This document shows, piece after piece, positions 6,075-8,836 of a stretch of 9,606 bases of DNA. Every line of letters starts with the position of its first letter. The stretch's first letter is position 1. The position numbers and the translations under genes are program-made. The notes beneath the pieces were generated by a model that worked only from the letters and a program-made list of their open reading frames with translations, searched no databases and was not told where the DNA came from. The stretch lies in the IMG/VR virus record IMGVR_UViG_2541047901_000004, positions 1 through 9,606 of that record. One strand, 5' to 3'. Source of the stretch: a virus. Its lineage: Duplodnaviria > Heunggongvirae > Uroviricota > Caudoviricetes.

Positions 6075-6144
6075 CGGGTCCTCCCGGTGTAGTGACCTGC
6101 CACGGGGCGGGAGCGGCGCGGAAAAAGGCTGGTTTTTGCATTTT
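6075..6144 (+). repeat. Copy A of a 70-bp direct repeat (68/70 identical to 8611-8680); contains a cosN-like GC-rich core but no cosB-like flank
   Basis: The alignment at a constant offset of 2536 bp was read directly. Mismatches are 6116 G vs 8652 T and 6131 G vs 8667 A. The copy starts right after the terminator T-run. The core ACG-GGGCGGGAGCGG-CGCGG lies at 6102-6121. Confidence 0.9.
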
Positions 6145-6334
6145 CATGGCGGCGGCAGCATGTGTGATAATTTATTGATAATTAAAAATTATTTCTGTTT
6201 TCACCTGTACAATATTTTTTTCTCCCTGTCATTAGATCAGTTTGCAATTAATTGAAATATATAAATAAATCTGTTTTTCACCTGCCAGGTGGAGTTGCCT
6301 GTGTCAAAACGTGTTCAGATGGCGGGATATTTAT

Positions 6335-6357
6335 GCCGGATTTTCTCCGGCTTTTTT
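6335..6357 (+). terminator. Orphan rho-independent terminator in the non-coding spacer (possible 3' end of a small RNA)
   Basis: Stem GCCGGA (6335-6340) / TCCGGC (6346-6351), loop TTTTC, followed by T6 (6352-6357). The stem arms are identical to the ssb terminator. No credible ORF precedes it. Confidence 0.6.
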
Positions 6358-6459
6358 GTGTCTGAATCTTATTAATCTATTTTTATGATAGAAATATGTT
6401 TATCTACCACTTTTATCGATCAATAATGTGCACAGTTTAGTCAGTAAGAGGAAGTTACT

Positions 6460-6666
6460 GTGAGTTGTATTAATGACCTGAACACGGGCGATATCAGGGG
6501 TGGTTCCGTTCATCTGGATGCGCAGACCGTTATGCGCCTTAAGCAGTACAGGATCGACCATATAAATCATCATCCTGACAAACCATTACCAGGTGTGGCG
6601 CAGATTGTCAGACATGCCGTAAACACCTGGCTTAATCAGAATGGTTTTGCATCGGTGGGGGAATAA
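6460..6666 (+). CDS. Hypothetical 68-aa protein (possible RHH-like fold), GTG start, coupled to the capsid fusion gene
   Basis: A strong SD (AAGAGGA, 6446-6452) lies 7 nt upstream of the GTG at 6460. The stop TAA overlaps the next ATG by 1 nt (TAATG at 6664-6668). SVHLDAQTVMRLKQY ... GVAQIVRHAVNTWL is compatible with a strand-helix-helix pattern, but this is weak. Confidence 0.6.
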   Translation: MSCINDLNTGDIRGGSVHLDAQTVMRLKQYRIDHINHHPDKPLPGVAQIVRHAVNTWLNQNGFASVGE

Positions 6667-8579
6667 TGAATCGCTGGTACACCATTAAGGCGGCGGATGT
6701 TCGCGGAGCGGCGGATATATCTATCTATGAGGAGATTGGCGGCTTCGGTGTTACTGCAAAGCAGTTCGCGGAAGACCTGAAAGCCCTTGGCGATGTTTCA
6801 CATATCAATCTGAGGATCCATTCACCAGGTGGTGATGTGTTTGAAGGCATCGCCATCTATAACCTGTTACGGAATCATCCGGCAGACATTACGGTTTATA
6901 TCGATGGTGTTGCGGCTTCAATGGCTTCGGTGGTCGCAATGGCTGGCGATCGTGTTGTGATGCCGGAGAACGCCATGATGATGATCCATAAGCCGTGGGG
7001 GATCTCTGGCGGAAATGCTGGCGATATGCGTGATTATGCTGATTTGCTGGATAAGGTGGAAACCGTGTTAATCCCTGCTTATGCCAGAAAAACGGGCAAA
7101 TCAGCACAGGAAATTACCGCCATGCTGGAGGATGAAACCTGGATGGATGGGAAAGAATGCCTTAAGCACGGTTTTGCTGATGAATTGTTGCCATCCGTCA
7201 GAGCAATGGCGCGAATTGAATCGAAACGCACAGGAGATTTTTTACATATGCCGGAAACCATTAAAGGAATGATTACACCGCCACAGGGAGCGGCAAATAT
7301 TGCTGGTAATGAACAGAAGCGCATCAATGGAATAAGTGAAGTGTTTAGCCTGTTCGGCAGTCGTTACGATGGGATCAAAATGGCGTGTCTGGAAGATGCA
7401 TCATGTACACCGGAAATGGCCCGTGAAAAGCTGTTGAACGAGCTGGGGCGCGAGTCCACGCCATCCAATAAAAATACCCCGCCTCATATCTATGCCGGAA
7501 ACGGAAACATAACAGGTGATGCAATTCGTCAGGGGCTTTATTCCCGTCTTGGGTATGAACGCCCTGAACGAGGCAACCCTTACGCGATGATGAGCCTTTT
7601 TGAAATGGCCCAGGCATCACTAACTGATCGTGGTATCAGTGTTGGCGGTTTTTTAAATCGCTCGCAGGTCGTTAATGCAGCTTTCACACACAGCAGCAGC
7701 GATTTTTCTCATATTCTGGCTGGTGGCGCTGAAAAATCAGTACTGAAAGGCTGGCAGGACAGCGGCGAAACGTTCCAGAAATGGACGCGTACCGGTTCGC
7801 TTTCAAACTTTCATGAAGCAAAGCGCGTTGGTCTGAATGGTTTTTCAAAGCTGGATAAAGTACCGGAAGGCGCGGAATATAAATACATCACCACCAGCGA
7901 TAAAGGTGTACCTATTGCGCTGGCCACGTACGGGAATATTTTTTCCGTTACCCGTCAGGCCATTATCAACGATGATCTGACCCAGTTAACTACAATCCCC
8001 ATGGCGATGGGACGCGCAGCTGCCAGAACAGTTGGCAATCTGGTTTATCTCCTGTTAACCAGCAACGGCAAGTTTACGGATGGTAAAGCGTTATTCCATG
8101 CCGATCATAAAAATCTTATTGCGAAGGATATGGACATGGAGGGGCTTAACGAAGCCCGTAAGCTGATGCGCCTCCAGGAAGACGCTAACGGCGATTCGCT
8201 GAATATTACCCCCGCATTTGTCCTGGTCCCCGCCGCGCTGGAGTCTGCCGCACATCGCGCCATTCTGTCATCGTCATCACTCTTTCCGGTTGATGGCGTG
8301 GGCACTATCAATCAGAACCCCGGCATCATTAACGCGGTGAAAGATATGGCGGAGGTAATCGTTGAGCCACGTCTTGATAAAGCCAATAACAAGGAGTGGT
8401 ATGTGGCAGCGGCGAAGGGTATGGACACGATAGAGGTCGCTTATCTTGATGGTATTGATACGCCATATCTTGAGGAGCAGGAGGGATTTACTGTTGATGG
8501 CGTCGCCTGGAAGGTGCGCATAGATGCAGGTGTCGCGGCCCTCGACTATCGCGGATTACTGAAATCGAGTGGAGCATGA
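6666..8579 (+). CDS. ClpP-like prohead serine protease / major capsid protein fusion protein (637 aa)
   Basis: Residues 1-190 are ClpP/S14-like: GVAASMAS with Ser85 (nt 6918-6920), MIHKPW with His108 (nt 6987-6989), and ...ETWMDGKECLKHGFADEL. Residues about 330-637 resemble a Mu gpT/HK97-fold major capsid protein (FSVTRQAIINDDL, ITPAFVLVPAALE, EWYVAAAKGMDTIEVAYLDG). The intervening ~140 aa form a linker or scaffold-like region. A GGTGGGGG SD lies upstream. Confidence 0.85.
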   Translation: MNRWYTIKAADVRGAADISIYEEIGGFGVTAKQFAEDLKALGDVSHINLRIHSPGGDVFEGIAIYNLLRNHPADITVYIDGVAASMASVVAMAGDRVVMPENAMMMIHKPWGISGGNAGDMRDYADLLDKVETVLIPAYARKTGKSAQEITAMLEDETWMDGKECLKHGFADELLPSVRAMARIESKRTGDFLHMPETIKGMITPPQGAANIAGNEQKRINGISEVFSLFGSRYDGIKMACLEDASCTPEMAREKLLNELGRESTPSNKNTPPHIYAGNGNITGDAIRQGLYSRLGYERPERGNPYAMMSLFEMAQASLTDRGISVGGFLNRSQVVNAAFTHSSSDFSHILAGGAEKSVLKGWQDSGETFQKWTRTGSLSNFHEAKRVGLNGFSKLDKVPEGAEYKYITTSDKGVPIALATYGNIFSVTRQAIINDDLTQLTTIPMAMGRAAARTVGNLVYLLLTSNGKFTDGKALFHADHKNLIAKDMDMEGLNEARKLMRLQEDANGDSLNITPAFVLVPAALESAAHRAILSSSSLFPVDGVGTINQNPGIINAVKDMAEVIVEPRLDKANNKEWYVAAAKGMDTIEVAYLDGIDTPYLEEQEGFTVDGVAWKVRIDAGVAALDYRGLLKSSGA

Positions 8580-8586
8580 CAACAAG

Positions 8587-8609
8587 GGCGGCGATAGCCG
8601 CCTTTTTTT
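8587..8609 (+). terminator. Rho-independent terminator after the capsid gene
   Basis: Stem GGCGGC (8587-8592) / GCCGCC (8597-8602), loop GATA, followed by T7 (8603-8609). Confidence 0.8.
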
Positions 8610-8610
8610 G

Positions 8611-8836
8611 CGGGTCCTCCCGGTGTAGTGACCTGCCACGGGGCGGGAGCGTCGCGGAAAAAGGCTAGTTTTTGCATTTTTATTCGTCATCATCATCTTT
8701 CTATGGTATTGAATTTTAAGTGTTTTTATTTTTGATATGTTAATTTTGCTTGTTTTATGCTCAACATATAGCGCATTTTTTGACCTCTTCTGAAAGTTGT
8801 TCGCAAGATGCATGTTTAAAACATTCTGGAGCGGGT
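8611..8836 (+). other. cos: Putative lambda-like cos region: copy B of the 70-bp repeat, with a cosN-like core at 8641-8652, plus an AT-rich cosB-like segment up to terS
   Basis: The core ACG-GGGCGGGAGCGT-CGCGG compares with lambda ACG-GGGCGGCGACCT-CGCGG (lambda recalled from memory). GTTTTTATTT lies at +82..+91 from the core start, against +83..+92 in lambda. TTCGTCAT is also shared. The terS ATG is at +197, against Nu1 at +191 in lambda. Confidence 0.55.

What the first reader, a model, noticed from the sequence alone, without database searches (positions are those of the whole stretch)
6075..8680. 70-bp near-identical direct repeat with a cosN-like core brackets the capsid cassette, giving a full cos and a cosB-less second copy
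Positions 6075-6144 and 8611-8680 are 68/70 identical at a fixed offset of 2536 bp. Each copy begins right after an intrinsic terminator T-run, although the two terminators have unrelated stems.

Both copies carry a GC-rich core resembling lambda cosN with conserved flanks (ACG...CGCGG). One of the two mismatches falls at the 12th position of the putative 12-nt overhang. Copy B has T there, as lambda does. Copy A has G.

Copy B is followed by cosB-like AT-rich sequence and terS. Copy A is followed by unrelated AT-rich sequence and the capsid operon.

In lambda, initiation needs cosN plus cosB, while termination needs cosQ plus cosN but not cosB. A second, cosB-less copy in direct orientation could therefore have several roles:
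- An alternative termination site. That would yield packaged DNA lacking the 2.5-kb capsid cassette, and the ends would be mismatched at one base.
- A decoy or terminase-titrating site.
- A shared regulatory element for two operons.
- A recombination substrate that can delete or insert the capsid module.

I do not know of a described case of this arrangement.
Basis: partly seen in the sequence, partly recalled or inferred. Interest (0 to 1): 0.8.

Follow-up and report, generated by a model that had tools for sequence, protein, structure and literature searches.

The report
Two complete cos sites in PICI
A 10-kb E. coli phage satellite carries two real DNA-packaging (cos) sites that share the cutting core but have different recognition arms, each matching a different helper-phage lineage; two cos sites in such satellites were already known, but their purpose was not.

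Summary
The repeat is real and longer than reported: window 6068-6147 and 8604-8683, 80 nt, 76/80 identical, offset 2536.

Both copies are cosQ-cosN-I2 cores of lambdoid cos sites. Phage records Tritos and cdtI start exactly at window-equivalent 6105 and end at ...CCTGCCACG.

The window is a ~10.4-kb PICI-type satellite between cspD and clpS. It has the same gene order as EcCICFT073.

The 161 nt after it are 93% identical to the cosB of Tritos/HannyBb/cdtI phages, down to a remnant terS start. Copy B is followed by a diverged cosB (70-76% to mEp460/phi458/606R10 phages). Next comes a satellite-encoded TerS homologue, 71% identical to 606R10 TerS.

The position-12 G/T difference is polymorphic in both copies and in phages.

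Two functional cos sites in a PICI were published for EcCICFT073 in 2018-2019, and their purpose was left open. EcCICFT073 cos2 shows the same rule: it is 93% identical to the complete cos of PhiR12 phages.

Best explanation: one private and one borrowed cos, giving two packaging routes or helpers.

Natural variants include a precise A/B fusion without the capsid cassette. Verdict: a new variant of a known kind, of moderate interest.

The parts
6052..6073 (+). Intrinsic terminator after ssb ('terminator A': GCCGGAGCAATCCGGC plus a T-run)
   Evidence: The fold gives -15.1 kcal/mol with z -4.8. The same terminator occurs twice in EcCICFT073, and one copy there precedes cos1.
6068..6147 (+). Copy A of the repeat, the cosQ-cosN-I2 core. 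cosQ-like TTTACGGGTCCTCCC is at 6071-6085 and cosN GGGCGGGAGCGG at 6105-6116.
   Evidence: See for the repeat. It aligns to phage cos cores. The Tritos and cdtI records start at the base equivalent to 6105 and end at ...CCTGCCACG.
6148..6299 (+). cosB-A, the TerS-recognition arm of the Tritos/HannyBb/cdtI type. It contains two TTTTCACCTG elements (6198 and 6275) inside a 39-nt direct repeat.
   Evidence: It is 93% identical over 161 nt to those phages' cosN-to-terS interval. The internal repeat is shown. Thirty-one of 121 phage cos sites with this cosN carry this cosB class.
6300..6357 (+). Remnant of a Tritos-type terS start (GTG TCA AAA...) running into a terminator (6335-6351 plus a T-run). 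This is the right end of the separable cos-A module.
   Evidence: It aligns to the Tritos terS start. The terminator is confirmed. Locus L146 lacks exactly window 6074-6345, with a TCCGGCTTTTTT microhomology at the junction.
6460..6666 (+). A 68-aa protein of unknown function (phrog_4934) that always precedes the satellite capsid gene
6666..8579 (+). ClpP-like prohead protease fused to a major capsid protein (637 aa)
   Evidence: It matches Pfam CLP_protease and Phage_capsid_4 and phrog_133. It is 58% identical to the head gene of phage 606R10.
8586..8610 (+). Intrinsic terminator after the capsid gene ('terminator B': GGCGGCGATAGCCGCC plus a T-run)
   Evidence: The fold gives -16.2 kcal/mol with z -4.7.
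8604..8683 (+). Copy B of the repeat, the cosQ-cosN-I2 core. cosN GGGCGGGAGCGT is at 8641-8652.
8684..8836 (+). cosB-B, a diverged recognition arm related to mEp460/phi458/569R4/606R10 phages
   Evidence: It is 70-76% identical to those phages and about 69% identical to the matching class in IMG/VR prophages.
8837..9322 (+). Satellite-encoded small-terminase homologue (DUF1441, 161 aa)
   Evidence: It matches Pfam DUF1441 and phrog_141 small terminase over residues 1-152. It is 71% identical to 606R10 TerS, with a divergent last ~20 residues. It has no similarity to RppA.
9319..9606 (+). Conserved last ORF of the packaging module (95 aa, phrog_1561)
   Evidence: It is 73% identical to the last ORF of EcCICFT073.

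Best explanation
The window is a Gram-negative cos-type PICI satellite of about 10.4 kb. It carries two complete, co-oriented cos sites.

**Why there is a repeat.** The 80-nt repeat is the part of a cos site read by the large terminase: cosQ, the cosN nicking site and I2. Two helper-phage lineages have 87%-identical TerL and share this core. That shared core explains the near-identity of the two copies and the sharp ends of the repeat.

**How the sites differ.** To the right of the repeat the two sites diverge because they carry different TerS-recognition arms (cosB).
- *cos-A (6068-6357)* is a near-verbatim copy of the whole cos of Tritos/HannyBb/cdtI-type phages. A helper of that type could package the island with its own TerS, cosmid-style.
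- *cos-B (8604-8836)* has a private, diverged cosB. It lies next to the satellite's own TerS homologue. Together with the TerL of mEp460/606R10-type helpers, this probably gives satellite-specific packaging.

**Consequence.** The island has two packaging routes or helper ranges. Because both sites point the same way, either can also act as a terminator for packaging started at the other. Recombination or cos cleavage and rejoining between them removes the capsid cassette.

**Shown versus inferred.**
- *Shown:* the anatomy, the homologies and the natural variants.
- *Inferred:* which proteins bind which arm, and any transfer phenotype.
For: **Both copies are cos cores**
- They align with phage cos sites.
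- The Tritos and cdtI records start at GGGCGGGAGCGT and end at ...CCTGCCACG.

**Copy A has a full phage cosB**
- 161 nt are 93% identical to Tritos, HannyBb and cdtI up to the terS start.
- The same arm lies upstream of DUF1441 terS genes in prophages of many E. coli genomes.

**Copy B has a diverged cosB and a satellite TerS**
- Its arm is only 70-76% identical to mEp460-group phages.
- It precedes a TerS homologue 71% identical to 606R10 TerS, with substitutions in the N-terminal HTH.

**Two phage lineages share this core**
- Among 120 IMG/VR contigs with this cosN, all but one of the 121 cos sites fall into exactly these two cosB classes, about 31 and 89.
- Tritos and 606R10 TerL are 87% identical, while their TerS are 42% identical with different N-terminal domains.

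**Physical link to the helper**
- Islands with a 99%-identical cassette sit inside terL (around codon 330) of 606R10-like prophages.

**The rule recurs in other islands**
- EcCICFT073 cos2, shown functional in PMC6092414, is 93% identical over 179 nt to the complete cos of PhiR12 phages. Its cos1 matches phages only over the core.
- A third island lineage has bracketing cos sites whose arms resemble two different phage groups.

**Conservation**
- 184 of 5426 E. coli genomes hold both copies plus the cassette.
- Diversity of the cos-A module (0.065-0.073) is about half that of neighbouring third-codon positions.
- L130 lost the capsid gene but kept both cos sites.
Against: - There is no experimental evidence for this island: no physical ends, no helper identified, no transfer data.
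- cos-A is facultative. Five close relatives keep the cassette and cos-B without it.
- The terS remnant shows that cos-A arrived by capture of phage DNA, so it could be a passenger.
- Low diversity could reflect recent spread rather than constraint, and the sample is 12 related islands.
- In EcCICFT073, deleting cos2 raised transfer by lambda and phi80 (PMC6092414), so a second cos can be a cost with some helpers.
- The satellite TerS homologue lacks the acidic C-terminal tail of the phage proteins. It may act like Rpp or not at all.
- Phage record termini may have been set by annotators rather than measured.
Confidence: 0.55

Rival explanations
1. One reading: copy A is a cosB-less second copy that acts only as an alternative termination site, a decoy or a terminase sink.
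For: - Copy A contains cosQ and cosN in the same orientation as copy B, so it could terminate packaging started at B.
- A B-to-A molecule of 3 units plus 7,845 bp would be 38,988 bp. That is within 78-105% of every candidate helper genome.
- L129 has exactly the junction such a molecule would form on cyclisation.
Against: - The premise fails. Copy A is followed by a complete phage-type cosB, 93% identical to Tritos/cdtI and conserved across islands.
- Only 2 of 5426 genomes carry the cassette-less junction against 184 with both copies, so B-to-A products are not common survivors.
- A termination role can coexist with the main explanation, but it does not explain cosB-A.
Confidence: 0.12
2. Copy A is a neutral passenger. 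It is a scrap of helper-phage DNA (cos plus the first codons of terS) captured by illegitimate recombination, and it has no role.
For: - A terS 5' remnant follows cosB-A.
- The module is bounded by TCCGGCTTTTTT microhomology and is absent in L146 and from islands with other left arms.
- PICIs are known to capture helper late-region DNA (PMC10111431).
Against: - The module is kept in at least 163 E. coli genomes.
- Its diversity is no higher than that of copy B and is below cosB-B and synonymous-like sites.
- Equivalent second cos sites occur in EcCICFT073 and in a third lineage with different sequences, implying repeated acquisition or retention.
- EcCICFT073 cos2 supports plasmid transduction (PMC6092414).
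- L130 kept both cos sites after losing the capsid gene.
Confidence: 0.2
3. The repeat is primarily a recombination substrate, a cassette junction that lets the capsid module be gained, lost or swapped.
For: - L129 is a precise A/B fusion with the crossover between 6074 and 6131.
- In EcCICFT073 the capsid cassette is bracketed by a 27-nt repeat of the terminator instead.
- Capsid cassettes of 63-99% identity sit between the same kinds of junction.
- Within-island A-B identity slightly exceeds between-island identity: 0.946 against 0.929, permutation p about 0.002.
Against: - This does not explain why the repeat is exactly the TerL-recognised core, or why each copy has its own phage-matched cosB.
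- The A-B identity (92-99%) is about what two phage lineages' cores already share, roughly 93% by my hand count of the Tritos and 606R10 rows in alignment A1.
- The permutation test ignores shared ancestry.
- Recombination looks like a consequence of carrying two cos sites, not their purpose.
Confidence: 0.1
4. The repeat is a shared transcriptional or regulatory element placed after terminators at the head of two operons.
For: Both copies immediately follow terminators and precede gene blocks.
Against: - The repeat coincides base-for-base with the phage cos core and phage genome termini.
- No promoter-like site lies in either copy.
- In phages the same sequence sits at cos, not at an operon control region.
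Confidence: 0.03

Closest known systems
EcCICFT073 cos1/cos2 (E. coli PICI; Fillol-Salom et al. 2018 ISME J, PMC6092414; 2019 Mol Cell, PMC6739421)
   Same: - It has the same gene order: int, alpA, ylcI, icd, DUF4222, primase, ori repeats, ssb, a capsid cassette, cos, a packaging-specificity gene and a conserved last ORF.
- It has two cos sites with the same cosQ/cosN and different cosB.
- One site is adjacent to the specificity gene and private. The other is a near-verbatim phage cos.
   Different: - In CFT073 the two sites are inverted and flank rppA. Here they are direct and flank the capsid cassette.
- The cosN is GGGCGGGAGCG(G/T), not lambda's GGGCGGCGACCT.
- The specificity gene is a near full-length DUF1441/phrog_141 TerS homologue, not Rpp.
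- The capsid cassette is a ClpP-MCP fusion, not gpE/gpD-like.
- The candidate helpers are mEp460/606R10-type and Tritos/cdtI-type phages rather than lambda and phi80.
Lambda cos (cosQ-cosN-cosB) and cosmids
   Same: The layout is the same: a cosQ-like TTTACGGGTCCT.CC, a spacer of about 20 nt, ACG|GGGCGG......|CGCGG, an AT-rich I2, then a TerS-specific arm ahead of terS.
   Different: - The cosN core differs at 5 of 12 positions.
- The cosB arms are unrelated to lambda R3-R2-R1.
- The TerS family is DUF1441, not Nu1.
- Two sites occur in tandem on one replicon.
Helper-embedded PICIs (HE-PICIs; PMC10111431) and SaPIbov5-type cos satellites
   Same: - These satellites carry a copy of the helper's own cos. 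The HE-PICI 11capE shares 258 bp at 90% with its helper's cos region.
- Relatives of this island (L012, L184) are embedded in terL of a 606R10-like prophage.
   Different: - The window's island is chromosomal, between cspD and clpS, with a different integrase.
- The papers I searched give no account of two cos sites with different cosB specificities.

Membership tests
Lambdoid cos site | A cosN nicking site that coincides with the cohesive ends of packaged genomes | tested here: met
   The Tritos and cdtI records start at GGGCGGGAGCGT and end at ...CCTGCCACG, which aligns with window 6105 and 8641. This is by homology only. The satellite's own ends were not measured.
Lambdoid cos site | A cosQ element upstream of cosN in the same orientation | tested here: met
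   TTTACGGGTCCTCCC is at 6071-6085 and TTTGCGGGTCCTCCC at 8607-8621. The lambda cosQ given in PMC6092414 Fig. S5 is TTTACGGGTCCTTCC.
Lambdoid cos site | A cosB arm between cosN and terS that the cognate TerS recognises | tested here: inconclusive
   Both copies are followed by sequence homologous to phage cosN-to-terS intervals: copy A at 93% to Tritos-type phages and copy B at 70-76% to mEp460-type phages. TerS binding itself cannot be tested here.
Lambdoid cos site | Supports terminase cleavage and packaging | not testable with these tools
   This needs transduction or in vitro cleavage assays.
Gram-negative cos PICI (EcCICFT073 type) | A ~10-kb island with unidirectional int-alpA-primase-ori, bounded by att repeats at a specific chromosomal site | tested here: met
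   The Pfam domains fit. The context is cspD/yljB to clpS. A 17-nt att repeat gives 10,381 bp. The gene order matches CFT073.
Gram-negative cos PICI (EcCICFT073 type) | Encodes Rpp, which retargets the helper TerS | tested here: not met
   BLASTP finds no similarity between the DUF1441 protein and RppA. RppA hits phrog_57 through its N-terminus only, while the window protein hits phrog_141 over its full length.
Gram-negative cos PICI (EcCICFT073 type) | Induced and packaged by a helper phage | not testable with these tools
   The only indirect support is that relatives are embedded in 606R10-like prophages.
EcCICFT073-style dual cos (cos1/cos2) | Two cos sites with the same cosQ/cosN and different cosB | tested here: met
   
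EcCICFT073-style dual cos (cos1/cos2) | Sites inverted and flanking the specificity gene | tested here: not met
   In CFT073 the sites are at L005 13559 (+) and 14298 (-) around rppA. Here both are on the + strand and flank the capsid cassette.
Helper-embedded PICI | [quoted passage not shown] | tested here: not met
   The window's island is chromosomal. Close relatives L012, L184 and L148 are inside terL.

The most novel reading that the evidence does not exclude
Packaging itself acts as a site-specific recombination system on this satellite. Terminase starts at one cos and ends at the other co-oriented cos. Cyclisation of that molecule fuses the cosQ side of one site to the cosB side of the other. 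Repeated over time, this would delete or duplicate the capsid cassette (as in L129) and swap cos halves. Terminase would then drive modular evolution and switching between capsid-plus and capsid-minus forms, on top of a helper-range bet-hedge provided by two cosB specificities.
Probability: 0.2. Interest if true: 0.65.

Novelty: new variant of a known kind. Interest (0 to 1): 0.5.

Why it matters
[quoted passage not shown] - **The rule.** One site is private to the satellite's own specificity factor. The other is a verbatim copy of the complete cos of a second phage lineage that shares the large-terminase core.
- **How widely it holds.** It holds for this island and for EcCICFT073 cos2, which matches PhiR12-type phages deposited in 2025. 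It holds more loosely for a third island lineage.
- **If correct.** Satellite host and helper range could be read from cosB arms, and specific helper candidates could be named for uncharacterised PICIs.
- **A further point.** A family of PICIs uses a TerS homologue rather than Rpp.

For the scan, the lesson is that the flagged feature is real but already has a published precedent.

Tried and rejected
- **cosB-less copy A.** Rejected by alignment to Tritos, HannyBb and cdtI.
- **Position-12 G/T as a designed A/B mismatch.** Rejected. It is polymorphic in both copies and in phages.
- **The cos-A-to-capsid block as a collapsed phage late operon (cos, terS...portal deleted, capsid).** Only cos-A and the terS remnant are phage-derived. 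The 68-aa gene has no counterpart in phage 606R10 and always travels with satellite capsid genes.
- **Strong concerted evolution of the two copies.** There is only a small excess of within-island identity, concentrated in the spacer. It is confounded by shared ancestry and is comparable to the identity phage cores already share.
- **Pattern scan of IMG/VR for the cosN core.** It returned mostly single-cos prophages. It was useful for cosB classes but not for surveying islands.
- **My first fuzzy cos finder.** It missed islands with other cosN cores, so I replaced it with a pattern-free upstream versus downstream BLAST.
- **PDB sequence search with the DUF1441 protein.** It gave no meaningful hit.
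- **The promoter/terminator scanner.** It did not list terminators A and B on the + strand. Folding confirmed them.
- **Co-residence of helper prophages with the island.** This could not be assessed because the search tool lists one place per record.
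Full report
**1. Observation**

The repeat is real. Window 6068-6147 and 8604-8683 are 80 nt long and 76/80 identical at an offset of 2536. The mismatches are at 6074, 6116, 6131 and 6145. Identity drops to chance within one 10-nt block on either side. The next-largest repeat in the window is 39 nt at 72%.

Each copy follows a strong terminator hairpin with an unrelated stem, at -15.1 and -16.2 kcal/mol and z about -4.8.

**2. Context**

The window is almost the whole of a satellite of about 10.4 kb, integrated between cspD/yljB and clpS of E. 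coli. It is 100% identical to strain IrN. A 17-nt att repeat gives a length of 10,381 bp.

The gene order is:
- integrase, AlpA, YlcI-like, Icd-like, DUF4222 and a D5-type primase;
- an iteron region, a small ORF and SSB;
- copy A;
- a 68-aa ORF and a ClpP-protease/major-capsid fusion;
- copy B;
- a DUF1441 protein and a conserved 95-aa ORF.

This is the architecture of Gram-negative cos PICIs, and it is collinear with EcCICFT073.

**3. What the repeat is**

The repeat aligns with the cos region of lambdoid phages. Phage records Tritos and cdtI begin at GGGCGGGAGCGT, which is equivalent to window 6105. They end at ...CCTGCCACG, the bases just before it. The repeat therefore runs from a cosQ-like element (TTTACGGGTCCTCCC) through cosN to the AT-rich I2 segment. 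This is the part of a cos site that the large terminase reads.

**4. The key correction**

The sequence after copy A is not unrelated. Window 6148-6308 is 93% identical to the cosN-to-terS interval of Tritos, HannyBb and cdtI. It ends in a remnant of their terS start codon region and a terminator. It contains two TTTTCACCTG elements in a 39-nt direct repeat, which are plausible TerS-binding sites.

The sequence after copy B is only 70-76% identical to the cosB of a different phage group: mEp460, phi458, 569R4, 606R10 and PhiR40_1.

Among 120 IMG/VR contigs carrying this cosN core, all but one of the 121 cos sites fall into just these two cosB classes, about 31 and 89. The two phage groups have 87%-identical TerL. 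Their TerS proteins are 42% identical and have different N-terminal DNA-binding domains.

The 80-nt repeat is therefore the conserved TerL core shared by two cos sites of different TerS specificity. That accounts for its sharp boundaries.

**5. The gene after copy B**

The DUF1441 protein is a near full-length small-terminase homologue. It matches phrog_141 over residues 1-152 and is 71% identical to 606R10 TerS. It has substitutions in the helix-turn-helix, and its last ~20 residues diverge and lack the phage proteins' acidic tail.

It is not related to RppA and has no solved relative by sequence. With its diverged cosB it looks like a private packaging-specificity pair. Whether it acts as a TerS or, like Rpp, through the helper TerS is not known.

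**6. Helper link**

Islands with a 99%-identical capsid cassette and both cos sites are found inserted in terL, around codon 330, of 606R10-like prophages (L012, L184, L148). This is the helper-embedded configuration described in PMC10111431.

**7. Natural variation**

- 184 of 5426 complete E. coli genomes hold both copies with the cassette.
- 163 hold the cos-A module contiguous with the cassette leader.
- Five IMG/VR relatives keep the cassette and copy B without cos-A. In L146 exactly 6074-6345 is missing, at a TCCGGCTTTTTT microhomology.
- L129 is a precise fusion of terminator A, the core and cosB-B with no cassette. The crossover lies between 6074 and 6131, an interval that includes cosN.
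- L130 lost 6533-8427, most of the capsid gene, but kept both cos sites.
- L143 and L144 have a different cos type at the B position plus a third, inverted site.
- A lineage with only 63% capsid identity, but 98% identical SSB, also has a 72-74-nt direct cos repeat bracketing the capsid gene. It uses other cosN cores and has no terS or rpp gene. Its B arm matches Stx-phage cos at about 87%, and its A arm resembles the mEp460 group at about 75%, with a partial 93% match to phage ASU11.

**8. Position 12**

The G (copy A) versus T (copy B) difference is not systematic. In 13 distinct islands the pairs are G,T once, T,G five times and G,G seven times. Phage sites carry T in 101 cases and G in 20.

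**9. Constraint and exchange**

Nucleotide diversity among 12 islands, by region:

| Region | Diversity |
|---|---|
| copy A | 0.065 |
| cosB-A | 0.073 |
| copy B | 0.048 |
| cosB-B | 0.112 |
| capsid gene, third codon positions | 0.133 |
| 68-aa ORF, third codon positions | 0.291 |

This is consistent with constraint on cos-A, but also with recent spread.

Within-island A-B identity slightly exceeds between-island identity: 0.946 against 0.929, permutation p about 0.002. The signal is mainly in the cosQ-cosN spacer. The effect is small and is confounded by relatedness.

**10. Literature**

EcCICFT073 was shown to carry two functional cos sites:
- cos1 is needed for transfer by lambda and phi80 and is recognised by the RppA-TerS complex.
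- Deleting cos2 raised transfer.
- The authors could not find a phage cosB in either site, and they asked why some PICIs have two cos sites (PMC6092414, PMC6739421).

I found no later paper that answers this.

In CFT073 the sites are inverted around rppA. Applying the same test, cos2 is 93.3% identical over 179 nt to the cos of PhiR12 phages. The match reaches about 135 nt past cosN, to just before their Nu1 gene. cos1 matches phages only over the core. The rule of one private cos plus one borrowed complete cos therefore holds there too.

**11. Mechanism**

*Best explanation (confidence 0.55).* The island has two packaging routes. cos-A lets Tritos-type helpers package the island with their own TerS. 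cos-B, with the satellite TerS homologue, gives satellite-specific packaging with mEp460/606R10-type helpers.

Because the sites are co-oriented, either could terminate packaging begun at the other. The predicted products are 41.5 kb (same site), 39.0 kb (B to A) and 44.1 kb (A to B). All are within 78-105% of the candidate helper genomes. That range is the lambda packaging limit, which I cite from established knowledge. Cyclisation of a B-to-A molecule would create the L129 junction.

*Rivals:*
- a termination or decoy-only role for copy A;
- copy A as a neutral captured scrap;
- the repeat as a recombination junction;
- the repeat as a regulatory element.

Each is weighed in the rival explanations section.

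**12. Verdict**

The phenomenon is already described for PICIs. This arrangement is a new variant: direct repeats around the capsid cassette, a different cosN, and a TerS homologue instead of Rpp. The cosB comparison gives a testable answer to a question the field left open.

Noticed in passing
L005 14095-14345 (minus strand) and L211 2480-2760: EcCICFT073 cos2 was reported to have a cosB unlike any phage compared. It is 93% identical over 179 nt to the complete cos region of phages PhiR12_1 to PhiR12_5, including three CCGGACAT-type elements ahead of their Nu1 gene. This suggests PhiR12-type phages as Rpp-independent helpers of EcCICFT073.
   Followed up: partly
L012 1-11983; L184; L148: Islands with a capsid cassette 99% identical to the window's are integrated inside terL (around codon 330) of a 606R10/mEp460-like prophage. 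This gives three co-oriented cos sites in about 11 kb. L148 looks like a further rearrangement: phage cos, terS, the first 65 codons of terL, then cos-A directly.
   Followed up: partly
L192-L210 (for example L200 4340-7430): An E. coli island lineage has a 63%-identical protease-capsid gene and also two bracketing cos sites. It has no terS or rpp gene between the second cos and the last ORF. In several members the cosN cores of the two sites differ in sequence and even in length.
   Followed up: partly
L005 11227-11253 and 13499-13525: In EcCICFT073 the capsid cassette is bracketed by a 27-nt direct repeat of the ssb-type terminator (CCGGAG.AATCCGGCTTTTTT). The same terminator precedes copy A in the window. 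Capsid cassettes seem to sit between recurrent junction sequences.
   Followed up: no
window 5063-5290: A cluster of short iterons ((C/T)TCTACC, 5 copies, and the inverse GGTAGA, 5 copies) lies just after the primase gene. This is probably the satellite replication origin, and the equivalent repeats occur in EcCICFT073.
   Followed up: no
window 2403-2482: GTGGCTGACA occurs three times within 80 nt, in the divergent region between the minus-strand ylcI-like gene and the rightward operon. It is a likely operator for the island's regulator.
   Followed up: no
window 1801-1825 and 1856-1880: A 25-nt direct repeat (84% identity, 55 nt apart) spans the end of alpA and the start of the next reading frame. 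RefSeq annotates that frame as a truncated pseudogene.
   Followed up: no
window 9270-9322 (C-terminus of the DUF1441 protein): The satellite TerS homologue diverges from phage TerS only in the last ~20 residues, losing the acidic tail (...DDEEELQQEE in phages). In lambda Nu1 the C-terminus contacts the large terminase, so this may matter for how the protein works.
   Followed up: no
L158-L191: Satellites with 71-80% identical capsid genes carry the same 68-aa gene plus capsid cassette, but no bracketing cos repeat was detected. Many sit 2-3 kb upstream of a second, ~55% identical capsid gene, so they look embedded in a helper's capsid gene.
   Followed up: no
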